Source: Thermoplasmatota archaeon
GTDB lineage: Archaea > Thermoplasmatota > E2 > DHVEG-1
DNA: 64,000 nt
Assembly: GCA_046496795.1 (NCBI GenBank)
Contig: JAWOGM010000054.1
Span: 558-64,557, forward strand
Reading direction: 5' to 3'
The notes beneath the pieces were generated by a model. The model was not told the DNA's origin and made no database searches. It saw nothing but the letters and a program-made list of their open reading frames with translations. Of the stretch, positions 29,680-50,597 are shown piece after piece. Position numbers and translations under genes: made by a program. How positions within the stretch are numbered: position 1 is the first letter of the stretch; each line of letters begins with the position of its first letter.

Positions 29680-31080
29680 TTGTTTTTAGTTATCTTTTTA
29701 TGTCGAAATTCTATGACAGACATAAGAGGATTTTATATGAGCAAAACTGAATCAGCATATGCCTATAAAAAAAAATCAGCCTGGGAAAACTTTACAAAAG
29801 ATCAAATAAAAAAAGCATTTGATTTCTCTGAAGAATATAAAACTTTTTTAAAGGATTGTAAAACAGAACGTGAGGCCATACAAAAAATCAAAAAATATGC
29901 AACTGCAGCAAAAAAAAACATTATTATCAACCAAGAAAAAGAAGCTGCAATCATTATCCCCGGGAAAAAACCAATATCAGAAGGGCTACGCATTGTAATA
30001 TCTCATATCGATAGCCCTCGACTTGATCTTAAACAAATACCTCTTTTTGAGGATTCAGATAGCAATATTGGTTTATTTGAAACCCATTATTACGGCGGTA
30101 TAAAAAAATTCCAATGGGTTGTTATACCACTAGCACTTCATGGCGTTGTAATAAGAAAAGATGGTGAAAAAATAACATTTAGTATCGGGGAGAATGCATC
30201 AGATCCTGTTTTTTCTGTCCCAGATTTACTCCCACATTTATCTCATGAAATACAAGACAATAAAAAACTTGATGATGCAATAAAAGCAGAAAGCCTTGAT
30301 ATAATAGTTGGCAGCATACCTTTAAAAGGAGAATATAAAGAAAAAATAAAGACAGCAATCCTTGAAAAATTGCACAAAGATTATGGAATTATTGAGGAGG
30401 ATTTTGTTTCTGCAGAACTTGAGGCAGTTCCTGCGTTTCAACCAAGAGATATAGGTTTTGATCGTTCATTAATCGGAGCGTACGGTCAAGATGACAAAGC
30501 ATCAGCATATCCTGCTTTACAAGCAATCCTAAATGTACAAAACCCAACATATACAGCAATATCATTATTTGTCGATAAAGAAGAAATCGGAAGTGAAGGA
30601 AGTGCAACTGCTCAAGTTACTACTTTTCTTCGATCAGTTATCAAAGAACTAGATCCAACAGCTGATGTTGATAAGGTAATGTTGGAATCAAAAGTCATCT
30701 CAGCAGATGTCAATGCTGCTGTCACTCCAAATTATACTGAAGCATTTGAATTAAAAAATGCATCTGTGTTAGGAAAAGGAGTGGTTATGTCAAAATATAC
30801 CGGTCATGGTGGAAAATATTCTGCTAATGATGCATCTGCTGAATATGTCGCAGAGATACGAACTATGTTAAACAACGAAAAAGTACCATGGCAGACAGGG
30901 GAGCTTGGAAAAGTAGGTAAAGGCGGCGGAGGAACCGTTGCAAAATACTTTTCAAGGCTAGGAATGCAAGTTCTTGATTTAGGACCTGCTGTGCTGTCCA
31001 TGCACTCACCCTATGAAGTCACCAGCAAAGCAGATATCTATGCTACCTATCTTGCATATCATGGATTTTTAAAGCACTAA
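29680..31080 (+). CDS. M18 family aminopeptidase (aspartyl aminopeptidase-like)
   Basis: Metal ligand motifs 'ISHIDSPRL', 'GQDDKAS', 'DKEEIGSEGS' and C-terminal 'SMHSPYEV'. The likely true start is the internal 'MSKTESAY' near 29737. Confidence 0.8.
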   Translation: MFLVIFLCRNSMTDIRGFYMSKTESAYAYKKKSAWENFTKDQIKKAFDFSEEYKTFLKDCKTEREAIQKIKKYATAAKKNIIINQEKEAAIIIPGKKPISEGLRIVISHIDSPRLDLKQIPLFEDSDSNIGLFETHYYGGIKKFQWVVIPLALHGVVIRKDGEKITFSIGENASDPVFSVPDLLPHLSHEIQDNKKLDDAIKAESLDIIVGSIPLKGEYKEKIKTAILEKLHKDYGIIEEDFVSAELEAVPAFQPRDIGFDRSLIGAYGQDDKASAYPALQAILNVQNPTYTAISLFVDKEEIGSEGSATAQVTTFLRSVIKELDPTADVDKVMLESKVISADVNAAVTPNYTEAFELKNASVLGKGVVMSKYTGHGGKYSANDASAEYVAEIRTMLNNEKVPWQTGELGKVGKGGGGTVAKYFSRLGMQVLDLGPAVLSMHSPYEVTSKADIYATYLAYHGFLKH

Positions 31081-38459: not shown

Positions 38460-39587
38460 ATGAAAAATATGTTAGTGAAGAGTTTACTCATTGCAATTGT
38501 GCTCTTATTACTTGGAGTGAGTATTCTTCCAACTATCAACGCAACAATAAATGAGGCTAGTGCTATAAACAAACAACCCCAACCACAGCTATTAGATATA
38601 TTTTGGGAAGAAAACTTCGATTCCTACGATCTTGGCAGCTCAATGCATGAGCAAGGTGGCTGGAAAGGCTGGGATAATAACCCTGCATGGACTGCCTATG
38701 TCACTGATGAGCAATCTCGCAGTAACCCACATTCAGTTGATATTGAAGGTGATGCAGATATTGTCCGTGAATTTTCAGGATTAACATCTGGACAGTGGAA
38801 CCTTACAGCATGGGTCTACGTACCATCAGACCTATTTGGATTATCGTATTTTATTTTACTCAGCGACTATACCGATGGAGCAGGTCAAGCAAATGAGTGG
38901 GCAGTTCAAGTACGATTTGATCCAGATCAAGGAATAGTTGAAGCTGAACATGGTGGCCCAAGTCTGCCATTGATAACTGATCAATGGGTTGAACTAAGTG
39001 TTCTTATAGATCTTGATGTCGACTGGTTTGAATTCTACTATAATGGCGACCTATTGGAAGAAAAAGCTTGGACTGCAGGTCCAAACAACGCAGGAACAGG
39101 AAAGCTTAACATCGGCGCAATAGACCTATTTGCAAACTCTGCAACAAGTGTTTTTTACGACGATATAACCTTAGAAGGAGAAGCAACAGAACCTTCTCTC
39201 ACATGCGAAGGAAGCCTGAGCTGGACTGATGTGGAACCTGGTGCTACTGTTACAGGAACCTTTACCATTGCAAATATTGGAGCCCCCGGATCTGATCTTA
39301 ACTGGGAGATACAAAACTTTCCAACCTGGGGAACTTGGACATTCACACCAAACAGTGGAACAGGCTTAAAGCCAGAAGATGGAGAACTCACCATTGAAGT
39401 GGAAGTTGTCGCTCCAATTGATAAAAATGAAAATTTCACAGGATCAGTAAGAGTCGTCAATAGTGATAATACCAATAACTATTGTGATATTGATGTAGCG
39501 CTTGCAACACCAGTAAGTTATTACAGGCCGCTACTGCAACGATTTATCAGCAGACATCCCATATTAGCACAACTCCTTGGATTGTAA
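38460..39587 (+). CDS. Secreted protein with a CARDB-like beta-sandwich and a conserved C-terminal tail '...HPILAQLLGL'
   Basis: Signal peptide 'MKNMLVKSLLIAIVLLLLGVSILP'. The C-terminal ~110 aa are paralogous to 40170..40700 ('WTDVEPGATVTGTFTIANIGAPGSDLNWEI...TGLKPEDGELTIEVEV'). Confidence 0.5.
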   Translation: MKNMLVKSLLIAIVLLLLGVSILPTINATINEASAINKQPQPQLLDIFWEENFDSYDLGSSMHEQGGWKGWDNNPAWTAYVTDEQSRSNPHSVDIEGDADIVREFSGLTSGQWNLTAWVYVPSDLFGLSYFILLSDYTDGAGQANEWAVQVRFDPDQGIVEAEHGGPSLPLITDQWVELSVLIDLDVDWFEFYYNGDLLEEKAWTAGPNNAGTGKLNIGAIDLFANSATSVFYDDITLEGEATEPSLTCEGSLSWTDVEPGATVTGTFTIANIGAPGSDLNWEIQNFPTWGTWTFTPNSGTGLKPEDGELTIEVEVVAPIDKNENFTGSVRVVNSDNTNNYCDIDVALATPVSYYRPLLQRFISRHPILAQLLGL

Positions 39588-39662
39588 ACAAATACAATCT
39601 CTCTCTTTTTTTTAATTTTTTCTGATAATTTAATTGATTAAAGAAAAGTAGATTACCAATTC

Positions 39663-39677
39663 TTACGGACGTGGCGG
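39663..39677 (+). repeat. attL: a 15-bp direct repeat TTACGGACGTGGCGG copying the 3' end of tRNA-Arg. A degenerate 26-bp extension matches at 21 of 26 positions.
   Basis: Identical to 48721-48735. It is GC-rich in an AT-rich background and sits in intergenic DNA. Confidence 0.6.
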
Positions 39678-39806
39678 CGTCTGAACCTATTTCCTCCTGT
39701 TAAAAAGTTCAATAATAACATAAAAATCGCACTTATAGATTTTTCAGCATCCCTCACTAAAATCTTTTTTCTTTCTTTTTTTGTCACATTTTTTTGAGGT
39801 GCTAAC

Positions 39807-40175
39807 ATGAAGCAGAAATCAATATACGATAACATGACTAAATCAGAAAAAATCGTTGCACAATTTTTGAAAGATCTTGGAATCTTTTGGTCATATGAAA
39901 AACCTATATATGTATGGGACAGAAATAAAAGACCGCGAGTTTGGACTCCCGATTTTTTCCTTAACCAGTTTAGTATCTATGTTGAGGTTTGCGGGTCAGA
40001 AGATTTTGATTATGAATATAGAAGAATAACGTACAAAGAGAATGGATATAATGTTATATTTTTACACCTGTATAAAGAGACAAATAGATGGAAAGAACAT
40101 TTTTTCCAGTATATTTCAAAAATATCAAATTATAGAAATGAGTGGTTAAACAGATTACGTATGAAATATTCATAA
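39807..40175 (+). CDS. DUF559 (Vsr-like endonuclease fold) domain protein
   Basis: 'NMTKSEKIVAQFLKDLGIFWSYEKPI...TPDFFLNQFSIYVEVCGSED...ENGYNVIFLHLYKE' parallels the DUF559 pattern (MTxAEkxLW...YIvDF...IEvDG...G..VlRf). Confidence 0.6.
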   Translation: MKQKSIYDNMTKSEKIVAQFLKDLGIFWSYEKPIYVWDRNKRPRVWTPDFFLNQFSIYVEVCGSEDFDYEYRRITYKENGYNVIFLHLYKETNRWKEHFFQYISKISNYRNEWLNRLRMKYS

Positions 40176-40700
40176 TCCGACTAGTTGTCTTAGTATCGGA
40201 AATACATTTGGAAACTGCTCTGAAATTAATAAAAGAAATTTATATATATTTATTTCAGTATTTTTCTGAATCTTTGTTGGAGTTATTAAGCTTAATTCAA
40301 AAATATGAAAATCTTCTGGATTATCACTATTAATAATTTTCACCTCTCCACCAAACTCTGTAAGATGTTCATATGGCGCATCGACCTCAACTACAACTGT
40401 CAATGTTTCATCCTCAGGTTTCAATCCAGTTCCATCATCAGGATCAAACCTCCATTCACCCCATTCAGGCCATGAATCTACTTCCCAATTAAGTTCAGAA
40501 TTCGGATCGCCGATGTTTTTCACAATAAAACTATCCTCGACTGTTGCACCAGGTATTACATCAACCCACCCTATCTCCCCATCGCAATCCAAATCAGGAA
40601 CAGGATCACCTATTATTTTATATGAATTACATAACGGCATAAAAACTAAAAACAACAATAATACTGCAACCATTAACGGAAATATTGATTTTCTAAGCAT
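40170..40700 (-). CDS. Secreted protein with a CARDB-like domain and the C-terminal tail '...FPILRQLVGL'. The true start is the internal Met at 40700, not the tracked 40928.
   Basis: The signal peptide 'MLRKSIFPLMVAVLLLFLVFMPLC' begins at residue 77 of the tracked ORF; the upstream 76 residues are AT-rich read-through. It is a paralog of the C-terminal half of 38460..39587. Confidence 0.5.
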   Translation of the reverse strand: MLRKSIFPLMVAVLLLFLVFMPLCNSYKIIGDPVPDLDCDGEIGWVDVIPGATVEDSFIVKNIGDPNSELNWEVDSWPEWGEWRFDPDDGTGLKPEDETLTVVVEVDAPYEHLTEFGGEVKIINSDNPEDFHIFELSLITPTKIQKNTEINIYKFLLLISEQFPNVFPILRQLVGL

Positions 40701-40881
40701 GTTCTTATTTCCCCTTATACATAAAGAATATAGAAAATGGTATTTATAAATTTCGCAAATTTTGTAAACAATTATTACATGAAAGACAAAATATTGAAAA
40801 AAAATAATAAATATTATAAACATTATGATTATCTCACTACAAGTAACATTGAATATAATTCGTAGGACGAAGGGAGAAAAC

Positions 40882-43800
40882 ATGAATAATTCTTGTTTAA
40901 ATAAATACCTAAAGGCTAGTATTCTCATAGGCAGCTTAATAATATTGATTTTTATGTTGAATTCAGCACAAGCAACAGAAATTGAAATGGATTTTTCATT
41001 TGAAGAACCTGATATAACCGAACTTACAATATCAGATGAAACATATCATGATGTTAAGATTGATGGTTTGAAAACAACAGGTGACACTGGTTTACCTTTG
41101 TTGCCGGTAAAAACAGTTAAAATTCTTCTACCACAAAGAGGAGTTTTGGAGTCGATAGATGTAGTTTTAGATGGTAATACATCAATGGGCCAGAATTATA
41201 ATGTTACACTTGGGAAAGAATCTGTTAATTTGTCTGGTGGGCAAAACGGGTCAAATGAGTCATATTTTAATGAATCAATACCATATCCAACGACTTCTTA
41301 TGATAAAATTGGTGTTTTTCATTTCAGGGGGCATTCCTTTTTGATAATTAATCTTCATCCATGTTATTACATTGGTGAAACCGGGGAGATATATTACTAT
41401 GAAAATATTTCTCTTACAGTAACAACAAATGAAGTGGGTAATGTTAGTAAATTTTTTAGAAATACAACAACTGATGAAGAATTGATAAAGGAGAAGGTAG
41501 ATAATTATGATTGTATATCCAGTTATGATACTAAGGTGGGTTTTTCAAAAAACTCAGATCTCGTTGATCCTCAAGATTCTTATGATTATGTCATTATAAC
41601 AAAAAAGAAGTTTAAAAATGCTATTTGTCCACAGGGTTTCAGATTCTGGTATACGTTTCAGGATTTAGCAGATTATAAAAATAGTACAGGTACACAAACA
41701 ATAGTTGTAGCTCTTGAGGACATTTTAAATGAACCTGAATATCATTGGGATGGTGAATTTGGCGATGGTTTAAATGAAAGTATTTTTAATGACACGCAAT
41801 GTCATATCAGAAATTTTATTAAGGATGCATTTCAAAATTGGGGTATTGAATACGTTCTTATTGGAGGAGATCATAATAATACTTTAACTGATTGTGATAT
41901 CGTTCCAGCAAGATTCTTTAAATATACAGAAATTCATATCTCAAAACCTTCTGACATTTATTATTCATGTCTTGACGGCAATTATAATATGGATTCTGAT
42001 GGAGATTTTGGAGAAAAGGGCGATGGAGGTTTTGGTAATGGAGATAACTGGGAGCCAAAATTAGGTTCTGGATATTGTTATGCAGAGGCAGATTCAAGCC
42101 AATATGGAGGTGGGTTTGATGTTGGCTTATTTTCAAAAGAATTAGATATGTCCAATTTTTCTAATGTGTATTTAAATTTTACATGGAGCTTCCGTTCTAA
42201 TTATAACGCCCATATAGAAGTTAATGTTTATTCCGGGGGAAATGATTCTGAAAACAAAGAAGTAACTCTGTGGGAAAAGAGTACTGGTTCTGAAATTCCT
42301 GATCCTATGGTATTGAATTTTAATCCTAGTATATATACTGATCCATCTGAAGTTTATATTGAATTTAATTATACAGATAGTGGTAGTTCCAGTTCAGATT
42401 CAATGAATATCGATGATATAAAAATAACCGGTTTTGATGGCACTAATTGGACGGTGATTTTAAATGAGAGTTTCGAAGGAGACCCTTTTCCTCCGGATGG
42501 TTGGGATCAAAAAAAATATAGTGGAGAAAAAGAATGGGCAATTGAATATTATCAAATCTATCCTGATTTATTTGCAGAAGTTTATATCGGGCGGGCAAGT
42601 GTTGGTAATAGGTTTGAAGTAAACAATTTTGTAACAAAAACACTATCTTATCAAAAAGCGGATGCTCATGATCCATATATTAATAAAACATTGTTACTTG
42701 GTGCAAGGTTAAATAAAAAAACTTGGGGTGGTGATTATAAGGATGAAATCGTAGATAAATGTGATAACGTCTTCAATTCGACAGGTATTCCAAGTGAAAA
42801 TTATACCATTGATAAATTATATGATCGTGATTTATCTCCTGATTATTGGCCTAAAAAGGAGCTAAGACGTAGACTTAATAATGGAGTTAATATAATAAAT
42901 TATATGGGTCATGGAGATTGGGATGGAATTGGTACAAAAGATTATGATGGTGACTTTTCATGGATAGATAAATTTAATATTGCAGATGTTTGTTTACTTC
43001 ATAATAATAAATATTTCTTTATGTATTCTATGGGTTGTTTAAATGGTAAATTTCATTGTTGGTCATCACTTCCTATATTCAATATTACACAATGTGACAG
43101 TTTTGCTGAGTTCCTTACTGTTAGAACAAAGCATGGTGCATATGCGACTATTATGAATACAGGCTCTGGAACATTTATTCCAAGCTCGACCAACTCTTCA
43201 TCCCAATATTTTGATAGGTTTTTTTTCAATGCAACATTTGGAGGTGCTGAAATAAAAGAATTAGGTAGAGCAAATCAGGAATCAAAAGAAAACACCTTAC
43301 CTCTAATATACGATTTAAATGTTTTTTATGGTTTAACTCTTTTTGGTGATCCTCAGATTTCTCTAAAAATTCCAGTTGAAAATAATCCCCCAAATAAACC
43401 TGATACACCGACAGGATATGAAGATCCTGATCATAAATTATTCTGGACTTATTATACTAGTACAACTGATCCAGAAGGAGATCAGCTTTATTATAAATGG
43501 GAATGGGATGATGTTGAAGGTTTGGTATGGTGGATTCCATTTTTACCTTATGATTCAGGTGATACTGCTAGTATGATACGTCCATGGTTAATTCCAGGGA
43601 CTCATAAAGTTAGAGTTAAAGCTATGGATATTTATGGTGCAGAAAGTAATTGGTCTGATCCTTATTACATGTCTGTATCATTTGATCTTAATATGCAAAT
43701 AAACCCTAATCCTGCTGTTGTTGGTGAGACAATTGATTTCAATGCAGAATCAGAATATGGTGAAACATATACCTGGGATTTTGGAGGAAGCAAAGGAATA

Positions 43801-46800
43801 AAATATGGTGCCCAAGTAACTGAAGATTATGATTCTGTCGGTGAATATGAGGTTATCCTAAATGTAACAGGTAGTGAAAACATTACATCAAATGCAACAG
43901 AATCTGTTGAAATTGTATTGTTACGATCTGAAATTGGTTGTTCATCCAATCATGCAGCACCAGACGAAACTATTTACTTTACAAACCTTTCAAAAGGATA
44001 TTATGAAATCAAGGAATGGGAATGGGAATTTGGTGATGGTAATGGATCAACAGATGAGAATCCAAACCACTCTTTTACATCTTCAGGTGTATATAATGTT
44101 ACCTTAAACGTAACAGATGATGAATATAATACAGATGAATTTACTGTGGTCATATATGTAGATACTGTACCCCCGGAAATATCAAATGTTTCCCATTCAT
44201 CTGAGATTATTGGCTATGGGACAAATATCACAATTTCTGCTCATGTCACAGATGATATAAGCGGCATTCAATTGGTTTGTGTCAATATCACCTGTCCTGA
44301 TGACAATAGTGAAAATTATACCATGAACCTTACAAATGATGATAATTACGAATGCACATTTACAAACACTTGGGATCTTGGCATATATAACTATACTATT
44401 TGGGCGATGGATAATGCAAACAACACCAATTCATCATCAGGGCATAGTTTCTCAGTTTCCAGATCGTTTGGTTATACAGAAATTGGGGCCTCAAATCAAA
44501 CCATATGGGATACAATAACTGGATCAACGTTTATGGTCAATGAAAAATGTGTTGCAGATAACCTAACAGTATATATTAACCCGGGTGATGCTACATATGA
44601 TTCACATTATCAGTGTATGATATATGATTATGATGACTCTGAGCTAGTTGGTATTTCTGATGAATTGAATGTTACCTCTGGAGAAGATTGGGTGGTATTT
44701 CCGTTTTCTGAGCCGAAACCTGTGATGATACTTGGGGTTAATTATACCTTGCAATGTTGGAGTGATAATGAAACATTAGCGATGTATTATGTCAATGGAA
44801 CTGGTTATGGTCAGGGGCAGTATTTTGAAGGAATATATGGATATGTTCCTGAAGATATATTGTTTGAATATGAAGATAGGAGATATTCAATTTATTGTAG
44901 CTATTCAAATGATACAATTCCACCAACTATCTCTGATGTAACTGATGACCCAAATACCTGTGGTTTTGGGCAGACAGTAAATATTACAGCAGAAATCAAC
45001 GGCACGATAAGCGGTGTTGATAATGCAACTGTAAATATCACATATCCAGATGAAACATTACATGTTTTTACAATGGACAATACTGAAAATGATATTTATC
45101 AATGCAGTTTCACAGCTACTTGGTTAGTTGACCAATATAACTATTCAATCTGGGCAATAGATGCCTATGGAAATCAAAATACCAGCACGGGTTATAGTTT
45201 TACTGTTTCTTCAAATGCAACAATTGGTGTTTGCACAATCAAGAATATTTATGGTGCCAATGAGTCTATTAATATAACTGATCCGCCCGTAGGTTCACCA
45301 TTTATTGGTTATGAATTACTAGATAATGACAGCGTTCTTCACATCTGGAACAAGTATGATAGTTATTATTTCAACACAAGCAGTGGGTTGCAGCTTACCA
45401 ATAATTATGATGAGTACTGGTCTCATAATGTGTTAATGCTAGGTTACTACAATAATGACCAATGGAATCTTATGTATCGTACTGATGAGCTCAGTGGATT
45501 TACAAAGAGTATTGATTCAGATAATGATACGTTTGTGAATGCTACACTCTGGAAGGATCTAACCTATGGTGGTTATGCCTTCCGACTGGCAATAAGATAT
45601 CATCTAGGTGTGGATGATAATGAGCTTACAATAATTCCGTACATTAAGAATATCGATGATGAAGATATTCCATATGTGTTGGGTTTTGGCTGGGAATTAC
45701 AGGATATTCAAATTGATATGACAGAGACAGGAGACTATATCCAACTGGGTAATGAAAATTATTATCTTAATCAAAGTCTTGATAACAGCTATACGAATCT
45801 TTCTGATCCTATCTATTGTTTCAATGAGGTGACTAATGAAACTGAGATCTGTGGTTATTCCGATCCAGCATTTTATCTCATGGAGAACATCACAGAGACA
45901 ACTACTGAATCATTGTATCTTCGTTGGGATAAAGATCTTACATATAAACTAGAGGTAAAGTCAAGAGCGGGGCAGTATAATGCGCCCGTAACCTTGTTTG
46001 TCAGAATTGGAACATTAAATAATGGTCAGGAGAAATCTACGGATATGTTTTGGTATGATGCTGATCAATATACTTATTATTTCGACAGCTATGATACAAA
46101 ACTCGATGCATGGGAAACAAATCCTAGTAACATGGTTGATGGAAGTACATCGACATTCGCAAGTACAGACATTAGGGATGATTCTGAATATTGTGATAGT
46201 ACATCATTTGGATATGGCGGTGCACCTTCAGGTACGGTCTCTAAAGTTGAGATAAGGGCATATGGTAAATATGAAGAAATTGGTGGCTCTATCAACATAA
46301 AACCAACTTTCAACGGTGGAAACGGTGATAATCATTACTTTTCCCTCCCCGGTTCAGCAGGTTGGTCATCCTGGTTTGATATTACAGATGATACCAATGC
46401 ACCTGAACCATGGACCTGGAGTGATGTTGAAAGTCTTGATTGCTCTATTATTGTATGTGATATCAGACAAGGGGATACATTTTATTGCCATAAAGTTGAG
46501 ATTCGTGTGACAAATAATGAAGCTCCTGTTGATAATAATCCAGCGCCTGCTGATGATAGTATTAATGTTTCAATATCTCCGACTTTGAGCATTAATGTCT
46601 CAGATGCTGAAGGTGATTCTATGAATATTACTTGGTATAGTAATAGCAGTGGTTCTTGGACGTCATTTGGAACTAATAACAGTGTAGGTAATGGTACATA
46701 TTACCAGTCGTTTAGTAATGCTTCTGTGAACGGTCAATGGTGGTACTGGAAGGTTAATGTTTCCGATGGCTCCAACACTTTAGAAAGCAGTGTCTATAAG

Positions 46801-47136
46801 TTCTATACTGGTGTTCAATCAAAGATCTTTAATACTGGTTCCACAAATATTTCTGGTTATTTGTTGATACAAGTTGAATTTTTTAGCGGAACTCAGTTAA
46901 TATGGGTGTTGGATAATGATACAATCAATGAAACCACTCCAAGGACAATAAATGTTGGTGAGCAACTTGCTTTAGATCTGATATTCAACGGTGAAATCAG
47001 TACTGATGATCTTACGCATGGTGATGGAACGTATCGTGTGTATGCAGCATTCCGTGATCCTGATGGCGACGTACTAATATGTGATGATGAAACTTTGCTT
47101 GCAGCTTGGTATGAGTTTGAGGTAGACACCAGCTAA
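40882..47136 (+). CDS. Giant (~2085 aa mature) secreted surface protein with a gingipain-like (C25) domain, PKD-like domains and an internal tandem Ig-like repeat. It is extremely rich in N-glycosylation sequons.
   Basis: The likely start at 40882 is preceded by AGGGAG. Signal peptide 'MNNSCLNKYLKASILIGSLIILIFMLNSAQA'. 'YVLIGGDHNN...VPARFFKY...SDIYYSCLDG', His 'YMGHGDWDG' and Cys 'YSMGCLNGKF' parallel 27316..29202. PKD-like 'YTWDFGGSKG' and 'EWEWEFGDGNGSTDENPNHSFTSSGVYNVTLNVTD'. Repeats 'PPEISNVSHS...HSFSVS' and 'PPTISDVTDD...YSFTVS'. Confidence 0.6.
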   Translation: MNNSCLNKYLKASILIGSLIILIFMLNSAQATEIEMDFSFEEPDITELTISDETYHDVKIDGLKTTGDTGLPLLPVKTVKILLPQRGVLESIDVVLDGNTSMGQNYNVTLGKESVNLSGGQNGSNESYFNESIPYPTTSYDKIGVFHFRGHSFLIINLHPCYYIGETGEIYYYENISLTVTTNEVGNVSKFFRNTTTDEELIKEKVDNYDCISSYDTKVGFSKNSDLVDPQDSYDYVIITKKKFKNAICPQGFRFWYTFQDLADYKNSTGTQTIVVALEDILNEPEYHWDGEFGDGLNESIFNDTQCHIRNFIKDAFQNWGIEYVLIGGDHNNTLTDCDIVPARFFKYTEIHISKPSDIYYSCLDGNYNMDSDGDFGEKGDGGFGNGDNWEPKLGSGYCYAEADSSQYGGGFDVGLFSKELDMSNFSNVYLNFTWSFRSNYNAHIEVNVYSGGNDSENKEVTLWEKSTGSEIPDPMVLNFNPSIYTDPSEVYIEFNYTDSGSSSSDSMNIDDIKITGFDGTNWTVILNESFEGDPFPPDGWDQKKYSGEKEWAIEYYQIYPDLFAEVYIGRASVGNRFEVNNFVTKTLSYQKADAHDPYINKTLLLGARLNKKTWGGDYKDEIVDKCDNVFNSTGIPSENYTIDKLYDRDLSPDYWPKKELRRRLNNGVNIINYMGHGDWDGIGTKDYDGDFSWIDKFNIADVCLLHNNKYFFMYSMGCLNGKFHCWSSLPIFNITQCDSFAEFLTVRTKHGAYATIMNTGSGTFIPSSTNSSSQYFDRFFFNATFGGAEIKELGRANQESKENTLPLIYDLNVFYGLTLFGDPQISLKIPVENNPPNKPDTPTGYEDPDHKLFWTYYTSTTDPEGDQLYYKWEWDDVEGLVWWIPFLPYDSGDTASMIRPWLIPGTHKVRVKAMDIYGAESNWSDPYYMSVSFDLNMQINPNPAVVGETIDFNAESEYGETYTWDFGGSKGIKYGAQVTEDYDSVGEYEVILNVTGSENITSNATESVEIVLLRSEIGCSSNHAAPDETIYFTNLSKGYYEIKEWEWEFGDGNGSTDENPNHSFTSSGVYNVTLNVTDDEYNTDEFTVVIYVDTVPPEISNVSHSSEIIGYGTNITISAHVTDDISGIQLVCVNITCPDDNSENYTMNLTNDDNYECTFTNTWDLGIYNYTIWAMDNANNTNSSSGHSFSVSRSFGYTEIGASNQTIWDTITGSTFMVNEKCVADNLTVYINPGDATYDSHYQCMIYDYDDSELVGISDELNVTSGEDWVVFPFSEPKPVMILGVNYTLQCWSDNETLAMYYVNGTGYGQGQYFEGIYGYVPEDILFEYEDRRYSIYCSYSNDTIPPTISDVTDDPNTCGFGQTVNITAEINGTISGVDNATVNITYPDETLHVFTMDNTENDIYQCSFTATWLVDQYNYSIWAIDAYGNQNTSTGYSFTVSSNATIGVCTIKNIYGANESINITDPPVGSPFIGYELLDNDSVLHIWNKYDSYYFNTSSGLQLTNNYDEYWSHNVLMLGYYNNDQWNLMYRTDELSGFTKSIDSDNDTFVNATLWKDLTYGGYAFRLAIRYHLGVDDNELTIIPYIKNIDDEDIPYVLGFGWELQDIQIDMTETGDYIQLGNENYYLNQSLDNSYTNLSDPIYCFNEVTNETEICGYSDPAFYLMENITETTTESLYLRWDKDLTYKLEVKSRAGQYNAPVTLFVRIGTLNNGQEKSTDMFWYDADQYTYYFDSYDTKLDAWETNPSNMVDGSTSTFASTDIRDDSEYCDSTSFGYGGAPSGTVSKVEIRAYGKYEEIGGSINIKPTFNGGNGDNHYFSLPGSAGWSSWFDITDDTNAPEPWTWSDVESLDCSIIVCDIRQGDTFYCHKVEIRVTNNEAPVDNNPAPADDSINVSISPTLSINVSDAEGDSMNITWYSNSSGSWTSFGTNNSVGNGTYYQSFSNASVNGQWWYWKVNVSDGSNTLESSVYKFYTGVQSKIFNTGSTNISGYLLIQVEFFSGTQLIWVLDNDTINETTPRTINVGEQLALDLIFNGEISTDDLTHGDGTYRVYAAFRDPDGDVLICDDETLLAAWYEFEVDTS

Positions 47137-47183
47137 AACAACATACTTTCTGTAAAGTAGGTCAGACAATTTGGCCTGATTTT

Positions 47184-47390
47184 TCAATATTTTCCTGATT
47201 CAACTTGTTCTTTAAGTAAAAGAAGAGCCTGTTCTACAATATCAGATACAGATCTGAATCTTTTGTTATCTACAGCTGAACCAGTATTTTCTTGTACCCA
47301 TTTTAAAAGAGTTGGATGTATGGTGACGGAAAGTCTTTCTCGTTTTGGTTCTGTTTTCTTTGGTCTTGCCATAATTACATATGAATACAC
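47184..47390 (-). CDS. Ribbon-helix-helix (CopG/Arc-like) DNA-binding protein
   Basis: 'RERLSVTIHPTLLKWVQENTG' has the RHH beta-strand + helix pattern. The likely start is the internal 'MARPKK' at ~47372. It is divergent from the integrase. Confidence 0.55.
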   Translation of the reverse strand: MYSYVIMARPKKTEPKRERLSVTIHPTLLKWVQENTGSAVDNKRFRSVSDIVEQALLLLKEQVESGKY

Positions 47391-47428
47391 ACCGAAACTT
47401 ATAAATATTACTATGCATATTTCATATT

Positions 47429-47447
47429 ATTACATATAATTACATAT
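47429..47447 (+). promoter_or_regulatory. Tandem direct repeat ATTACATAT-A-ATTACATAT in the RHH/integrase divergent intergenic region
   Basis: Read directly. Its position between divergent regulator and integrase starts suggests an operator. Confidence 0.3.
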
Positions 47448-47469
47448 CTTAATTAACGGTGCATGAAAG

Positions 47470-48762
47470 TTGAAGATCATCCAAGAAAACCTAATTAACC
47501 ATTCAACCAATCCATTTACAACCAATTCACATGAATTGGAAGGAGGCAATAATCAAGAATGGAAACAAAATATAGAAAACATAGGCCAGAAATATGTCAA
47601 ACAACCAAATCCCCAATTGGACGGGGAGGAGATGAATGACCGTGGCTATGTAAGACAAAAATTTGATGTTGAAAAATTTAAAAACCCATATATCTTAGAT
47701 CCATCCGAATACAAAACACAACAGGAATTATTCAATGCAATAAAATACTGGTGGGTATTCAAAAGACGGAAAAATGAAAACACGGTAAAGAAACGAATAC
47801 CAATGGCAAAAAGAATGAGCAAACATCCAGTATTCCCAATTAATTGGAAGGAACTAAACCCTAATCAAATCATAGCATATCTAGAGTACAGAGAATACAA
47901 AGAAGGTGCTGGAAAGAACGCGATACGAAACGAATGGGACACACTCAACATGTTTGCAAAGGCATTTGGTATAAACACAGAAACATGGGGATACACACCG
48001 CCAAGTAAACCACCGGCAAAAGTCAAAATAATACCACTACCAAACACAACACACAGTATCATACATTACAGATACTCAAAAGACAAATACACAAATGCAC
48101 TCTTTCAGTACATACTAATGCACGGCTTTGTTATTGGATGGCGACCAAGTGAAATAGTAATCCAGAAAGTACGCGATGTAAACATCGATGATGGCTACAT
48201 GATCATAACTGAGACAAAGAAACACAATCAACTAAGACAGATATTTCCAGAAAAAGACTTAATGATCAATCCAAGACGAAAATGTTTGAAAAACTGGATT
48301 GACAAATGGAGACCCAAGGTCGAAAACCAATACAGTAAAGACTTTTTGTATCTGCAACCAAACGGTAAACCATACACAGTAGATTACTTACGAAAGAAAC
48401 TCTCACCTCTCGTAAAAGAGGCATGGAGACCTTTCAGCCTATACACAATGAGACACTGGTGTGCAACAGCAAGACTTATCAAAAGCAAGACAGAGACAAA
48501 GAAATGGGACATATGGGAAGTTAAAGATTGGATGGGGCATGACAAAATTGACACAACCGAAGATTACGTGAAATATGCGAAAAAATACCATCGAAACGCA
48601 CCGTATGATTGGATTAAGTCCGTCCTCAAATTTCATGACAATTTGGAAGTGGAAAATGGGCTAAAATCAATAAACGGCAAAAAAACCTACGTTTCGAGTG
48701 GAAACAACAGGAGTGGTGAGTTACGGACGTGGCGGGATTCGAACCCGCGATTACCGACTTAG
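47470..48762 (+). CDS. int: Tyrosine recombinase/integrase (pNOB8-type, not split by integration)
   Basis: C-terminal catalytic boxes 'MRHWCATARL' (HxxR) and 'DTTEDYVKYAKKY' (Tyr region). The last ~13 codons are translated from the tRNA-Arg gene. Confidence 0.75.
   Translation: MKIIQENLINHSTNPFTTNSHELEGGNNQEWKQNIENIGQKYVKQPNPQLDGEEMNDRGYVRQKFDVEKFKNPYILDPSEYKTQQELFNAIKYWWVFKRRKNENTVKKRIPMAKRMSKHPVFPINWKELNPNQIIAYLEYREYKEGAGKNAIRNEWDTLNMFAKAFGINTETWGYTPPSKPPAKVKIIPLPNTTHSIIHYRYSKDKYTNALFQYILMHGFVIGWRPSEIVIQKVRDVNIDDGYMIITETKKHNQLRQIFPEKDLMINPRRKCLKNWIDKWRPKVENQYSKDFLYLQPNGKPYTVDYLRKKLSPLVKEAWRPFSLYTMRHWCATARLIKSKTETKKWDIWEVKDWMGHDKIDTTEDYVKYAKKYHRNAPYDWIKSVLKFHDNLEVENGLKSINGKKTYVSSGNNRSGELRTWRDSNPRLPT
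48721..48735 (+). repeat. attR: the 15-bp direct repeat TTACGGACGTGGCGG, covering the tRNA-Arg 3' acceptor/T-arm end plus 3 nt of flank
   Basis: Identical to 39663-39677. Confidence 0.6.
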
Positions 48763-48798
48763 AAGGCCGGTGCCTTATCCAGGCTAGGCCACACGCCC
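48724..48798 (-). tRNA. tRNA-Arg (anticodon UCU)
   Basis: Manual fold: acceptor GGGCGUG/CACGUCC (one G-U), D stem GCCU/AGGC, anticodon stem CCGGC/GUCGG with loop CUUCUAA, T arm GCGGG-UUCGAAU-CCCGC, discriminator G. Confidence 0.85.
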
Positions 48799-48803
48799 AT
48801 AAA

Positions 48804-48891
48804 CGCTGAGGAGGAGATTTGAACTCCTGATCCCCTTTCGGAGAACCGGCTTTCAAGGCCGGCGCGGTAGGCCAGGCTTTGCTACCTCAGC
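48804..48891 (-). tRNA. tRNA-Ser (anticodon UGA), type II with a long variable arm
   Basis: 88 nt. Acceptor GCUGAGG/CCUCAGC, anticodon stem CCGGC/GCCGG with loop CUUGAAA, a 17-nt variable arm, T arm AGGAG-UUCAAAU-CUCCU. I could not resolve the D-stem pairing by eye. Confidence 0.75.
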
Positions 48892-48945
48892 ATATTATTA
48901 AATAGTATTGTAAAAAGAGTATCATAAATTCTTATAAAAAGAATT

Positions 48946-49313: not shown

Positions 49314-50597
49314 TTATTTAGCTTCCTCAACTTCTAAACAAACACCAGCAGCCACAGTTTGTCCCATATCTCGAATAGCGAATCTTCCAAGTTGTGGAAT
49401 CTTTTTGGATGATTCAATAACCATCGGTCGCGTTGGAATAATTTTTACAATTGCTGCATCACCTGTTTTAATGAAGTCAGGGTTTTCCTCTTTCACTTGT
49501 CCAGTTCTTGGATCAAGTTTCTTTTGTATTTCTTCGAATCTGCATGCCACCTGTGCTGTATAACAATGGAAGACGGGCGTGTATCCTTTTGTTATTACAG
49601 AAGGATGGTTAAGAACCATAATCTGTGCAATAAATGATTTTGCAACAGTTGGGGGGTTATCAGCTGGTCCTGCGACATCTCCCCGACGAATCTCATTTTT
49701 GTTGATGCCTCTCATATTAACACCGACATTATCTCCAGGCTCTGCTTGGTTAATTTGCTCGTGATGCATTTCAATAGTTTTAACTTCTCCCGTTGCTCCA
49801 CCAGGTTTTGCACTGGGTTTAAAGATAAGTTGTTGACCAGGTTTCATAATCCCTGTTTCAATCTTACCGACAGGAACAGTCCCAACTCCCTTAATAGTAT
49901 AGACATCTTGAAGTGGCCATCGAAGTGGTAAGTCAGTTGGTTTTTTTGATAATTGGAAGTTATCAATAGCTTTGAGAATTGTATCTCCCGTCCACCATTC
50001 AATATTTCCTTTATCTTTGACATTATCGCCTTTAAATGCCGATACAGGTATTATTTGTAGCTGTTCATCTTTGTAACCCACGCTTTTTGCAAGTTTAGTT
50101 ATCTCTGATTTTACCTCTTCAAATCGTGCTTTGTCATATGGTGGTTTTGTATCATCCATTTTATTGACGGCGATAATCATCTGTTTAACGCCAAGTGTTC
50201 GTGCAAGAAACATATGTTCCTTTGTCTGAGCCATAATACCTTCAGGACCTGCAACAACAAGAATTGCAGCATCTGCCTGCGATGTCCCTGTGATCATATT
50301 TTTAACAAAATCTCTGTGTCCAGGAGCGTCGATGATAGTAATATAGTACTTATCTGTATTAAATCGCTTATGAGCAACATCAATAGTAACTCCACGCTCT
50401 CGTTCTTCTTTTAAATTATCAAAAATCCATGCGATAGCAAAACTTTCTTTTCCTTTTGCTTTTGCTTCTTCCTTAAATTTATCGAGCATGTGCTGAGGGA
50501 ACTGCCCGGTCTGAAGCAATACTTGTCCAACTAAGGTTGATTTCCCATGATCGACATGACCGATAACTACCATGTTCATGTGTGGTTTATCTGCCAT
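49314..50597 (-). CDS. tuf: Translation elongation factor 1-alpha (aEF-1A)
   Basis: G1 'GHVDHGKST', G3 'DAPGH', G4 'NKMD', and the domain II/III conserved blocks. Length 427 aa. Confidence 0.95.

What the first reader, a model, noticed from the sequence alone, without database searches (positions are those of the whole stretch)
40882..47136. Giant 2103-aa sequon-rich surface protein with a gingipain-like (C25) core and internal tandem Ig-like repeats, carried as integrase cargo
His ('YMGHGDWDG') and Cys ('YSMGCLNGKF') blocks, together with 'YVLIGGDHNN...VPARFFKY...SDIYYSC', parallel the smaller protein at 27316..29202 ('FSGHGSYMSW','FLFACSCHKF') and the clan CD gingipain dyad order. This suggests a protease or pseudo-protease scaffold. 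Two ~95-aa segments, starting near nt 44167 and nt 44918, are clear internal duplicates. NxS/T sequons occur every few residues, so the protein is probably a heavily N-glycosylated S-layer or adhesin-like protein. A mobile element whose main cargo is a surface protein suggests phase or antigenic variation of the cell surface, or host-range modification.
Basis: partly seen in the sequence, partly recalled or inferred. Interest (0 to 1): 0.55.

Follow-up and report, generated by a model that had tools for sequence, protein, structure and literature searches.

The report
Mobile giant gingipain-like archaeal peptidase
A 2,084-residue secreted, gingipain-type (C25) cysteine peptidase of a sediment archaeon (Thermoplasmatota) lies inside a 9-kb element inserted at a tRNA-Arg gene, so the enzyme is of a known kind but its gene is demonstrably mobile.

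Summary
ORF 40882..47136 encodes a 2,084-aa secreted protein (2,103 aa only from the upstream ATG at 40825). It has a gingipain-type prodomain and a Peptidase_C25 catalytic domain (Pfam E 8e-46). His677 and Cys719 align with RgpB His211 and Cys244.

A ~175-aa MAM-like domain is inserted between the two catalytic subdomains. PKD and Ig-like domains follow, including two 44%-identical ~100-aa copies 250 aa apart, which are not tandem. The protein ends in a conserved ~105-aa domain that has no Pfam model. N-x-S/T sequons are 2.7-fold enriched (z = 10).

GenBank already names the protein 'C25 family cysteine peptidase'. Extracellular C25 peptidases of the related MBG-D/Thermoprofundales archaea are published and transcribed.

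The new part is mobility. A 15-nt direct repeat, the 3' end of tRNA-Arg, brackets 39663..48735. Relatives with 96% and 92% identical EF-1α have the same flanking genes and tRNAs but no insert. Six of nine homologous loci carry an integrase or a remnant.

The protein is most likely a zymogen-type extracellular endopeptidase on a glycosylated β-sandwich stalk, carried by a cryptic integrative element. The S-layer and phase-variation ideas found no support. This is a new member of a known kind, of moderate interest.

The parts
39663..39677 (.). attL: 15-nt direct repeat TTACGGACGTGGCGG, a copy of the 3'-terminal nucleotides of tRNA-Arg. A degenerate tRNA-like stretch continues into the element to 39687 (21/25 identical).
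   Evidence: exactly 2 matches in the window and 0 in 100 shuffles; the sequence left of this point matches the flank beyond tRNA-Arg at the empty site in L029.
39807..40175 (+). orf122: small PD-(D/E)XK-like (Holliday-junction-resolvase/endonuclease-like) protein. It is an element gene and multi-copy in relatives.
   Evidence: PHROGs: phrog_9019 at 1.4e-5 and phrog_15137 at 6e-5. Homologs: 58% identity in L003 (two copies) and 81% in L031.
40170..40700 (-). sec176: 176-aa protein with an N-terminal signal or transmembrane segment and the C-terminal tail '...VFPILRQLVGL'. It is 39% identical to the C-terminal 142 aa of homologs of the chromosomal 375-aa neighbour.
   Evidence: No Pfam or NCBIfam hit.
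40882..47136 (+). Giant C25 peptidase gene, 2,084 aa plus stop. An alternative upstream ATG at 40825 would give 2,103 aa.
40882..40974 (+). Signal peptide (aa 1-31, '...MLNSAQA|TE'). The only hydrophobic segment in the protein.
   Evidence: Hydropathy scan. Model helix at aa 4-26. The cleavage site is inferred from the A-x-A rule.
40954..41433 (+). Gingipain-type N-terminal prodomain (Propeptide_C25, aa 25-184).
   Evidence: Pfam PF08126: E 2e-9, 37.3 bits against a cut-off of 22. Foldseek: RgpB prodomain 4ief_C at E 6.6e-10 and Kgp prodomain 5mun_A at 1.4e-7.
41569..42036 (+). C25 catalytic domain, N-terminal subdomain (about aa 230-385; contains YVLIGGDHNN, VPARFFKY and SDIYYSC).
42037..42564 (+). 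MAM-like β-jelly-roll domain of ~175 aa (aa 386-561), inserted between the two C25 subdomains. Present only in about 11 of the closest homologs.
   Evidence: Homologs join query positions 381-386 directly to 560-563. Foldseek hits the MAM domains of meprin β (4gwm) and LAST-MAM (8a28). No Pfam hit.
42565..43371 (+). C25 catalytic domain, caspase-like C-terminal subdomain (aa 562-830).
   Evidence: Pfam best stretch is aa 553-828 on profile positions 118-374. Profile against the PDB: RgpB at 2.4e-18.
42910..42912 (+). Codon of His677, the predicted catalytic histidine.
   Evidence: The family-invariant G-H aligns with RgpB His211. Conserved in at least 90% of 52 sequences.
43036..43038 (+). Codon of Cys719, the predicted catalytic nucleophile.
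   Evidence: The family-invariant Cys aligns with RgpB Cys244.
43372..44166 (+). Three PKD-type β-sandwich domains (aa 831-1095).
   Evidence: Pfam PKD_4 at 7e-16 and PKD at 7e-13. The first domain is 36% identical to the solved PKD domain of an MBG-D M14-like peptidase, 4xed.
44167..44466 (+). Ig-like repeat copy A (aa 1096-1195).
   Evidence: Big_13 hit is weak. pLDDT is 72-91, mostly 82-91, and the segment is all-β.
44467..44916 (+). Unassigned 150-aa β domain that separates the two copies (aa 1196-1345).
   Evidence: No Pfam hit. Low-confidence model.
44917..45216 (+). Ig-like repeat copy B (aa 1346-1445), 44% identical to copy A.
   Evidence: E 2e-28.
45217..46806 (+). Further all-β modules (aa 1446-1975) shared with paralogous giant proteins.
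   Evidence: only generic Ig/FN3-array matches.
46807..47133 (+). Conserved C-terminal domain (CTD, aa 1976-2084). No transmembrane segment and no Pfam model.
   Evidence: 389 representative clusters at E <= 1e-3. In 126 of the best 150 the match ends within 8 residues of the C-terminus. No Pfam hit.
47184..47372 (-). 62-aa small basic protein, probably a ribbon-helix-helix-type DNA binder. Conserved at the same position in the L021 element.
   Evidence: ORF; 37% identity, E 4e-7, to the L021 ORF. The fold assignment is an inference; there is no Pfam hit.
47470..48762 (+). Tyrosine recombinase / integrase. Its last ~14 codons run through attR into tRNA-Arg.
   Evidence: Pfam PF00589 at 7.6e-11. 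phrog_1 integrase at 3e-15. XerA/XerC-like hits far below their cut-offs..
48721..48735 (.). attR: second copy of the 15-nt repeat. It forms the 3' end of the intact tRNA-Arg.
48723..48799 (-). tRNA-Arg(TCT), the integration target. tRNA-Ser(TGA) follows at 48803..48892.
27316..29202 (+). It has a signal peptide and no sequons, and lies outside the element.
   Evidence: Pfam C25 at 1.7e-53. PorU models score far below their cut-offs..

Best explanation
The gene encodes a secreted, multidomain, gingipain-type (MEROPS C25, clan CD) cysteine endopeptidase of a Thermoplasmatota archaeon. Its closest relatives are MBG-D/Thermoprofundales genomes.

Proposed mechanism:
1. The protein is exported by its Sec signal peptide. 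(Inferred.)
2. It is probably made as a latent zymogen, with the N-terminal Propeptide_C25 domain blocking the active site as in RgpB and Kgp. (Homology shown; latency inferred.)
3. After removal of the prodomain, the His677/Cys719 dyad cleaves external proteins. (The dyad is shown by alignment; activity and specificity are not shown.)
4. The MAM-like insert, the PKD domains and the ~1,200-aa β-sandwich C-terminal half act as a substrate- or surface-binding stalk. The stalk is probably heavily N-glycosylated. (Inferred from folds and sequon statistics.)
5. The same stalk and C-terminal domain are used by paralogous giant proteins with M28, M9B or lectin heads. The protein is therefore one head type in a lineage-specific family of giant extracellular hydrolases, most plausibly used to harvest peptides.

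The gene occupies 69% of a 9.06-kb cryptic integrative element (about 39665..48722). The element inserted into the 3' end of tRNA-Arg(TCT) through its own tyrosine recombinase. The insertion is shown; current ability to excise is not.
For: C25 identity:
- Pfam Peptidase_C25 scores 157 bits against a cut-off of 23, and Propeptide_C25 37 bits against 22.
- A 22-sequence family profile hits RgpB 1cvr at 2.4e-18, Kgp 4rbm at 8e-15 and PorU 6za2 at 9e-8. The invariant GH and C fall on RgpB His211 and Cys244.
- The AlphaFold model of aa 1-935 has pLDDT 87 and pTM 0.83. Its best PDB matches are RgpB, Kgp and their prodomains, an MBG-D PKD domain (36% identity) and MAM domains.
- His and Cys are at least 90% conserved in 52 homologs.

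Secretion: there is a single N-terminal hydrophobic segment.

Glycosylation: sequon z = 10.4, and paralogs have 3.4-4.4 sequons per 100 aa.

Shared scaffold:
- The C-terminal half is present in up to 7 loci of one genome.
- The CTD occurs in 389 clusters and is C-terminal in 84% of the best 150.
- Three of five CTD proteins tested carry Peptidase_M28.
- Only 3 of 95 long CTD proteins carry C25.

Literature: C25 peptidases of Thermoprofundales are predicted to be extracellular and are highly transcribed. SG8-52-3 and M11B2D, which hold my loci L009, L015 and L019, are Thermoprofundales genomes in that paper (PMC6461988).

Mobility:
- The 15-nt direct repeat has 2 matches and 0 in 100 shuffles.
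- The integrase abuts tRNA-Arg.
- L029-L031 (EF-1α 96% identical) and L032 (92%) have the order PGM, EF-1α, S10, tRNA-Ser, tRNA-Arg, 375-aa gene, ABC genes, with no insert.
- L021 has the same order (giant gene, small reverse-strand ORF, integrase, tRNA) at tRNA-Ala. L009 has a 54%-identical integrase at tRNA-Glu.
- Six of nine homologous C25-giant loci have an integrase or a remnant within 10 kb.
Against: - No activity, expression or glycosylation data exist for this protein.
- The residue aligned with RgpB Glu152 is Trp, and the position of the S1-pocket Asp163 could not be assigned reliably. A full triad and the specificity are therefore unknown.
- The family's 'GE' motif after the strand is 'GA' here.
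- The C-terminal half is modelled poorly (pLDDT 61.6), so 'stalk' is a fold-level description only.
- How the protein stays on the cell, if it does, is unknown. It has no anchor.
- A stable-isotope-probing study found that MBG-D did not incorporate labelled protein despite its many extracellular peptidase genes (PMC9123169). This weakens the nutritional reading.
- The element has no recognisable replication or transfer genes, and no excised form was seen. It may be a fixed relic.
- Its GC content equals that of the host.
Confidence: 0.7

Rival explanations
1. The C25 domain works as a processing protease or transpeptidase (a PorU-like 'sortase') that matures other surface proteins or the protein itself. 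Its targets would be the many giant proteins that share the conserved C-terminal domain. It would not be a nutritional protease.
For: - C25 includes PorU, which removes C-terminal domains from cargo. The family profile also hits PorU 6za2 at 9e-8.
- A conserved, unannotated C-terminal domain ends at least 126 of the 150 best matching clusters.
- A second, small C25 protein is encoded 12 kb away. A 32%-identical homolog of it lies 7 kb from a giant CTD gene in L023.
Against: - Sequence and fold matches to the gingipains RgpB and Kgp are much stronger than to PorU (2e-18 against 9e-8; ranks 1-3 against rank 20).
- The NCBIfam PorU models do not hit the giant protein at all. They score 57 against a cut-off of 420 for the small one.
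- The CTD is internal, and repeated 3-5 times, in 24 of the 150 best hits. That is not how a sorting signal behaves.
- Archaea have no outer membrane and no T9SS.
Confidence: 0.1
2. The protein is chiefly a glycosylated adhesin or S-layer-like surface coat, and the protease domain is vestigial or plays a binding role.
For: - About 60% of the protein is β-sandwich array of the kind found in adhesin extender regions (SiiE, the ice-binding adhesin).
- It has a MAM-like adhesion-type insert and extreme sequon density.
- The Glu of the family 'GE' motif is replaced.
Against: - The catalytic His and Cys and their flanking motifs are intact here and in all close homologs inspected.
- A gingipain-type inhibitory prodomain is retained, which makes sense only for an active enzyme.
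- Paralogs on the same scaffold carry other peptidase heads (M28, M9B), which points to an enzymatic family.
- There is no S-layer domain, transmembrane segment or PGF-CTERM anchor.
Confidence: 0.1
3. The giant protein serves the mobile element rather than host nutrition. It would alter the cell surface for cell-cell contact and element transfer, for exclusion of competing elements or viruses, or for surface variation between strains.
For: - The gene is 69% of the element.
- Homologs are linked repeatedly to two unrelated integrase families.
- Strains differ by presence or absence of the element.
Against: - There is no invertible segment or inverted repeat.
- There are no relatives in viral contigs.
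- There are no conjugation or virion genes in the element.
- Most CTD-family paralogs have hydrolase heads.
- Three of nine homologous loci have no integrase nearby.
Confidence: 0.08
4. The gene and the integrase are neighbours by coincidence, and the gene is ordinary chromosomal DNA.
For: The GC content of the segment equals that of the host. The element has no replication module.
Against: - The direct repeat of the tRNA 3' end sits exactly at both ends of the segment.
- Two independent relatives have uninterrupted sites with conserved flanks.
- L021 has the same gene order at a different tRNA.
Confidence: 0.02

Closest known systems
Gingipains RgpB and Kgp of Porphyromonas gingivalis (MEROPS C25; PDB 1CVR, 4RBM, 4IEF, 5MUN)
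   Same: - N-terminal inhibitory prodomain.
- Two-subdomain α/β catalytic domain with a His...Cys dyad in the same order and motif context.
- An Ig/PKD-like domain directly after the catalytic domain.
- Secreted.

   Different: - Archaeal host with no outer membrane and no T9SS. There is no Por_Secre_tail/T9SS C-terminal domain; the protein has a different, unannotated CTD instead.
- A MAM-like domain is inserted between the catalytic subdomains.
- About 1,200 further residues of β-sandwich modules replace the haemagglutinin/adhesin domains.
- Only 12-16% identity in the structural alignment.
- Glu152 and Asp163 equivalents are not identified.
- Dense N-glycosylation sequons.
Predicted extracellular C25 peptidases of MBG-D/Thermoprofundales and other sediment archaea (Zhou et al. 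2019, PMC6461988; earlier single-cell work cited there)
   Same: - Same lineage: SG8-52-3 and M11B2D hold 45-56% identical relatives.
- Same family call (C25, extracellular).
- PKD-rich architecture.
- Transcripts detected in situ for family members.
   Different: Those reports list family assignments and expression values only. They do not describe the domain architecture, the MAM insert, the shared C-terminal scaffold or any link to integrases (0 occurrences of 'integrase' in that paper). This exact protein is not in those genomes.
PorU, the C25-family sortase of the type IX secretion system (PDB 6ZA2)
   Same: C25 fold and dyad. The genome contains many proteins that share a C-terminal domain.
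   Different: - Much weaker match than to the gingipains.
- The NCBIfam PorU models are not met.
- There is no T9SS context.
Cryptic integrated elements of archaea: tRNA-targeting, tyrosine-recombinase elements without viral or conjugative hallmarks (defined for Thaumarchaeota, PMC6563490)
   Same: - The integrase is the only hallmark gene.
- The size is within the reported range of 2.6-98 kb.
- It is inserted at a tRNA gene with direct repeats.
- It has no capsid or conjugation genes.

   Different: - A different phylum.
- An unusually simple element in which a single giant extracellular peptidase gene makes up about 70% of the length.
- The integrase reading frame runs through attR into the tRNA.

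Membership tests
Peptidase family C25 (MEROPS clan CD; Pfam PF01364) | Significant match to the family profile, above the curated threshold. | tested here: met
   157.4 bits against a cut-off of 23, E 8.3e-46, in two stretches split by an insert.
Peptidase family C25 (MEROPS clan CD; Pfam PF01364) | Catalytic His followed by Cys, each after a hydrophobic strand, aligned with RgpB His211 and Cys244. | tested here: met
   Profile-to-1cvr alignment. The residues are His677 and Cys719. They are invariant in A2 and at least 90% conserved in A3.
Peptidase family C25 (MEROPS clan CD; Pfam PF01364) | Caspase-like α/β fold similar to solved gingipains. | tested here: met
   A predicted model (pLDDT 87) gives 1cvr at E 1.7e-14 (TM-score on target 0.64) and 6i9a at 2.6e-14. 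This is a prediction, not a solved structure.
Peptidase family C25 (MEROPS clan CD; Pfam PF01364) | N-terminal gingipain-type prodomain (PF08126). | tested here: met
   37.3 bits against a cut-off of 22. Foldseek hits 4ief_C at 6.6e-10.
Peptidase family C25 (MEROPS clan CD; Pfam PF01364) | Third catalytic residue (RgpB Glu152 / Kgp Asp388) and the S1 specificity Asp. | tested here: inconclusive
   The sequence alignment puts Trp opposite Glu152 and cannot place Asp163.
Peptidase family C25 (MEROPS clan CD; Pfam PF01364) | Cysteine-dependent peptidase activity. | not testable with these tools
   Needs an enzyme assay.
T9SS cargo / gingipain secretion type | C-terminal Por_Secre_tail domain (PF18962 / TIGR04183). 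| tested here: not met
   No such hit in Pfam or NCBIfam for the whole protein or for the isolated CTD.
PorU-type T9SS sortase (NCBIfam NF033707) | Match above the equivalog cut-off. | tested here: not met
   The giant protein has no hit. The small paralog scores 57 bits against a cut-off of 420.
Archaeal S-layer / archaeosortase-anchored surface protein | S-layer domain, or a C-terminal PGF-CTERM-type motif with a transmembrane helix. | tested here: not met
   No such Pfam or NCBIfam hit. The only hydrophobic segment is the N-terminal signal. The C-terminus is '...AAWYEFEVDTS'.
tRNA-targeting integrative element (tyrosine recombinase; cryptic integrated element) | Tyrosine-recombinase gene at one end. 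| tested here: met
   PF00589: 42.5 bits against 27.1. phrog_1 at 3e-15.
tRNA-targeting integrative element (tyrosine recombinase; cryptic integrated element) | Direct repeats (att) that duplicate part of the target tRNA gene at both ends. | tested here: met
   15-nt exact repeat at 39663 and 48721, with 0 of 100 shuffles matching. The repeat covers the last 13 nt of tRNA-Arg.
tRNA-targeting integrative element (tyrosine recombinase; cryptic integrated element) | Uninterrupted target site in related genomes. | tested here: met
   L029-L031 and L032 have S10, tRNA-Ser and tRNA-Arg followed directly by the 375-aa gene homolog.
tRNA-targeting integrative element (tyrosine recombinase; cryptic integrated element) | Excision or a circular intermediate; ongoing mobility. 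| not testable with these tools
   Needs read-level data or PCR across the attP and attB junctions.
Phase-variable (invertible) surface gene | Inverted repeats flanking a promoter or gene segment next to a recombinase. | tested here: not met
   0 inverted-repeat pairs of at least 16 nt in 39500..48900.

The most novel reading that the evidence does not exclude
The conserved ~105-aa C-terminal domain ends hundreds of giant Thermoplasmatota surface proteins and has no Pfam model. It could be an archaeal sorting or attachment signal. The small, sequon-free, PorU-like C25 protein at 27316..29202, or the C25 head itself, would then remove it or use it for anchoring. That would be a functional analogue of the bacterial CTD/PorU (T9SS) system in an organism with no outer membrane. 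The integrase-borne cassettes would deliver new enzyme heads into that pathway.
Probability: 0.07. Interest if true: 0.8.

Novelty: new member of a known kind. Interest (0 to 1): 0.4.

Why it matters
Extracellular C25 'gingipain-like' peptidases are a main argument that benthic archaea such as MBG-D degrade detrital protein. None has been characterised, and isotope-probing results have questioned that role.

This locus offers three things:
- A well-defined, high-confidence construct (prodomain, catalytic domain and PKD domain, aa 32-935) for a first biochemical test.
- Evidence that such peptidases are modular heads on a lineage-wide giant scaffold.
- Evidence, from a clean empty-site comparison, that the genes move between genomes on small tRNA-targeting integrative elements.

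If this is general, peptidase repertoires in sediment-archaeon MAGs would be strain-variable accessory traits rather than lineage properties. That would affect how metabolic roles are inferred from MAGs.

Tried and rejected
- Single-sequence phmmer of aa 1-906 against the PDB found nothing. A family profile was needed.
- BLAST self-comparison returned only the identity hit. I replaced it with a diagonal scan.
- The exact protein is not on record in the contig index, so the source contig could not be fetched.
- No second att copy was found in L001 or L009. Those element limits remain open.
- IMG/VR holds no close relatives of the integrase or of the giant protein. I found no support for a provirus.
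- The C-terminal 989-aa model is poor (pLDDT 61.6) and gave only generic Ig/FN3-array matches. No specific function can be assigned to modules aa 1196-1975.
- Pfam at E <= 1 gave nothing for the MAM-like insert, the mid domain, modules D and E, the CTD, orf122, sec176 or the 62-aa ORF.
- Neighbours of the small C25 paralog are unrelated to sorting: a DUF3147 membrane protein, HypD and an M18 aminopeptidase.
- Composition does not mark the element: GC is 0.342 against 0.343. Its higher tetranucleotide distance may only reflect the odd amino-acid composition of the giant gene.
- I considered and rejected an invertible or phase-variable switch, an S-layer protein and a T9SS-type CTD.

Full report
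OBSERVATION

The window is archaeal. It encodes an eEF1A-type EF-1α at 49314..50597 and has 30-40% GC. An ORF runs from 40825 to 47136 on the + strand and is 2,103 aa from the first ATG. That start opens with a typical signal peptide (MNNSCLNKYLK-ASILIGSLIILIFML-NSAQA|TE) and is identical to GenBank MFO7677834.1, 'MAG: C25 family cysteine peptidase [Thermoplasmatota archaeon]'.

The two ~100-aa segments are real duplicates:
- They share 43/98 identical residues, E 2e-28.
- The diagonal score is 127, against at most 47 in shuffled sequences.
- They lie 250 aa apart with an unrelated 150-aa domain between them, so they are not tandem.

Sequons number 78, against 28.9 +/- 4.7 in shuffles (z = 10.4). 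That is 3.7 per 100 aa, while no other ORF in the window exceeds 1.9. Close paralogs elsewhere have 3.4-4.4 per 100 aa. Lokiarchaeal and other distant C25 homologs have about 1.

WHAT THE PROTEIN IS

Pfam gives these hits:
- Propeptide_C25, aa 25-184, E 2e-9.
- Peptidase_C25, E 8.3e-46, in two stretches.
- Two PKD domains.
- A weak Big_13 hit.

Comparison with 110 homologs shows that query residues 386-561 are an insertion. In most homologs, positions ~381-386 and ~560-563 are contiguous, and only about 11 close relatives have the insert. The insertion point is Pfam profile position ~118, which is the junction of the two gingipain catalytic subdomains.

A 22-sequence profile of the C-terminal subdomain hits RgpB (1cvr, 2.4e-18), Kgp (4rbm, 8e-15) and PorU (6za2, 9e-8). 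The alignment places the family-invariant Gly-His on RgpB His211 and the invariant Cys on Cys244. The predicted dyad is therefore His677/Cys719, and both residues are at least 90% conserved in a 52-sequence alignment. The small protein at 27316..29202 was in the same alignment and shares the invariant GH and C. It is a full C25 domain by Pfam (1.7e-53), and GenBank also names it a C25 peptidase.

An AlphaFold2 model of aa 1-935 is confident (pLDDT 87, pTM 0.83). Its PDB matches are:
- RgpB (E 1.7e-14) and Kgp.
- The RgpB and Kgp prodomains (4ief_C, 5mun).
- The PKD domain of an M14-like peptidase from the MBG-D single-cell genome AB-540-F20 (4xed, 36% identity).
- For the insert, the MAM domains of meprin β and LAST-MAM.

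One point is unresolved. The residue aligned with RgpB Glu152 is Trp, and the S1 Asp163 equivalent cannot be assigned from sequence.

THE C-TERMINAL HALF

The model of aa 1096-2084 is all-β but of mixed quality (pLDDT 61.6). Only the two Ig-like copies are modelled confidently. It matches only generic Ig/FN3 arrays, such as α2-macroglobulins and adhesin extenders.

This half is a shared scaffold:
- In species-representative genomes it recurs at 45-60% identity in up to seven loci of one Thermoplasmatales MAG.
- The last 110 residues alone find 389 clusters among 1.8 billion representative proteins.
- In 126 of the best 150 hits, the match ends within 8 residues of the C-terminus of a 1,000-2,400-aa protein. 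In 24 hits it is internal or repeated.
- Only 3 of 95 long members carry a C25 domain.
- Of five members scanned, three carry Peptidase_M28, one Laminin_G_3, and one has no recognised head.
- L019, from MAG M11B2D scaffold_512, is the contig of a gene listed as an expressed extracellular M9B peptidase in Zhou et al..

The window protein is therefore the C25-headed member of a family of giant, sequon-rich, secreted proteins with interchangeable heads. It has no transmembrane or known anchor motif at its C-terminus.

LINEAGE AND PRIOR KNOWLEDGE

The nearest genomic relatives are:
- Thermoplasmatales archaeon SG8-52-3, with a full-length homolog at 45% identity.
- Thermoplasmata archaeon M11B2D.
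- Several other Thermoplasmatales/Thermoplasmatota MAGs.

SG8-52-3, M11B2D and AB-540-F20 are treated as Thermoprofundales (MBG-D) in PMC6461988. That paper reports putative gingipain (C25) genes and lists C25 peptidases, mostly predicted extracellular, among the highly transcribed genes. PMC9123169 cautions that MBG-D did not take up 13C-protein despite such genes.

The family assignment and the proposed ecological role are therefore already known. I found no paper describing biochemistry of any archaeal C25 enzyme, but that search does not show none exists.

THE MOBILE ELEMENT

A tyrosine recombinase gene lies at 47470..48762 (PF00589 7.6e-11; phrog_1 3e-15). It ends inside tRNA-Arg(TCT), which lies at 48723..48799 on the - strand.

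The 15-mer TTACGGACGTGGCGG covers the last 13 nt of the tRNA. It occurs exactly twice in the window, at 39663 and 48721, and no shuffle produced a match. At the left copy a degenerate tRNA-like stretch continues, with 21/25 positions identical.

The decisive test was an empty site. Metagenome contigs L029-L031 have EF-1α 96% identical to the window's, and L032 has 92%. All carry the same gene order: PGM/PMM, EF-1α, S10, tRNA-Ser(TGA), tRNA-Arg(TCT). The homolog of the window's 375-aa gene follows immediately (76% and 64% identical), then the same ABC-transporter genes. There is no 9-kb insert. In the three-way alignment, the window's left flank matches the sequence beyond the tRNA 3' end in L029, and the window's right junction matches the tRNA itself.

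The segment ~39665..48722 (9.06 kb) is therefore an insertion. It contains five genes:
- orf122, weakly PD-(D/E)XK / Holliday-junction-resolvase-like.
- A 176-aa secreted protein on the - strand.
- The giant gene, which is 69% of the element.
- A 62-aa basic ORF on the - strand (47184..47372), probably a ribbon-helix-helix DNA binder.
- The integrase.

No capsid, packaging, replication or conjugation genes were detected. No relatives exist in IMG/VR. The element fits the 'cryptic integrated element' class defined for Thaumarchaeota (PMC6563490). Its GC content equals the host's, which is consistent with exchange within the lineage.

RECURRENCE

- L021 (Thermoplasmata Hel238.bin54) has the same order: 3' end of a giant CTD gene, a small reverse-strand ORF (37% identical to the 62-aa ORF, E 4e-7), an integrase (42% identical), then a tRNA. 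The tRNA there is tRNA-Ala.
- L009 (SG8-52-3) has a 54%-identical integrase that overlaps tRNA-Glu, 10 kb from the full-length C25 homolog.
- A second integrase family shows no significant BLASTP similarity to the first. It lies just upstream of the C25 homologs in L001/L002 (next to tRNA-Thr), in L035 and, as a fragment, in L036. It is also present in L009.
- L003 has an integrase remnant and two orf122 copies.
- L004, L034 and L037 have no integrase in the sequence available.

In total, six of nine distinct loci with a full-length C25 giant gene show an integrase or a remnant within 10 kb. L001 and L035 carry a second giant gene beside the C25 one, with a PKD/LamG head and an M28 head respectively. 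In L001 the two giant genes share 68-79% nucleotide identity over their 3' parts, which indicates recent duplication or gene conversion of the scaffold.

MECHANISM AND RIVALS

The best-supported reading is a Sec-exported zymogen whose prodomain is removed to free a His677/Cys719 endopeptidase. The enzyme sits on a glycosylated, MAM/PKD/Ig-rich stalk and works outside the cell. Its gene travels on a small integrase element.
- Shown: the family, the dyad, the prodomain and the fold (the fold is predicted), the scaffold paralogy, and the insertion.
- Inferred: secretion, latency, activity, glycosylation, the nutritional role and present-day mobility.

The rivals are:
- A PorU-like processing or sorting role. 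It is weakened by the much better match to gingipains and by internal, repeated copies of the CTD.
- A non-catalytic adhesin or S-layer-like coat. It is weakened by the conserved dyad, the retained prodomain and the peptidase heads of the paralogs.
- A function serving the element. There are no invertible repeats and no transfer genes.
- Coincidental adjacency to the integrase. The empty site contradicts it.

VERDICT

The S-layer, pseudo-protease and phase-variation suggestions found no support.

The protein is a new member of a known, already annotated kind. These points appear not to have been described:
- The MAM insertion.
- The shared giant scaffold with an unannotated C-terminal domain.
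- The clean demonstration that such a peptidase gene is the main cargo of a tRNA-targeting integrative element, with the same association recurring in related genomes.

Interest is moderate.

Noticed in passing
window 39500-39587 (375-aa gene), 40170-40240 (sec176, - strand), 29080-29202 (small C25): Three unrelated-looking secreted proteins end in a similar short tail: '...RHPILAQLLGL', '...VFPILRQLVGL' and '...RFPFLDRLFTPAILSRLLTQ'. None has a transmembrane helix. This may be a shared C-terminal amphipathic anchor or sorting motif of this lineage. The giant protein lacks it.
   Followed up: no
window 40170-40700 (-) and 38460-39587 (+): The element-borne 176-aa protein is 39% identical to the C-terminal 142 residues of the L029-L031 homologs of the chromosomal 375-aa gene next to the insertion site. 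It is 56% identical over 91 aa to the L032 homolog.
   Followed up: partly
window 27316-29202: The small secreted C25 paralog has no N-x-S/T sequon in 628 aa although it is 6.2% Asn. The giant paralog has 78. This opposite bias in two secreted proteins of one family is unexplained.
   Followed up: no
window 46807-47133; proteins P0121-P0266: The ~105-aa C-terminal domain defines a large family without a Pfam model: 389 clusters at 50% identity. In a minority of hits it is internal and repeated 3-5 times, in proteins of 4,000-6,300 aa.
   Followed up: partly
window 48721-48762: The integrase reading frame runs through attR into tRNA-Arg, so its last ~14 codons are tRNA sequence. In a reconstructed excised circle the frame would continue into the attL side and give 461 aa instead of 430 aa.
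   Followed up: partly
window 39807-40175; L031 237-602; L003 4869-5213 and 7261-7434: orf122, a weak PD-(D/E)XK nuclease-like gene, is multi-copy in relatives. An 81%-identical copy lies elsewhere in the empty-site strain, and two copies lie near the C25 gene in L003. Its 90%-identity protein cluster has 10 members.
   Followed up: partly
L001 14229-16258 and 21598-23594: Two neighbouring giant genes, one with a C25 head and one with a PKD/LamG head, share 68-79% nucleotide identity over their 3' regions. An IS110 transposase lies just downstream. This suggests recent duplication or gene conversion of the scaffold.
   Followed up: no
L035 15175-21384 (-): A 2,069-aa Peptidase_M28-headed giant gene sits 2 kb from the C25 giant gene and an integrase. 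This may be a multi-cargo island.
   Followed up: no
window 29680-31080: An M18 aspartyl aminopeptidase gene lies directly downstream of the small C25 gene. A DUF3147 membrane protein is divergently upstream.
   Followed up: no
window 60457-61332 (-) and 10372-11796 (-): The window holds further probable surface proteins. One is a NosD/β-helix protein with 12.7% Asn and 5 sequons. The other is a 474-aa ORF with weak, sub-threshold PKD hits.
   Followed up: no
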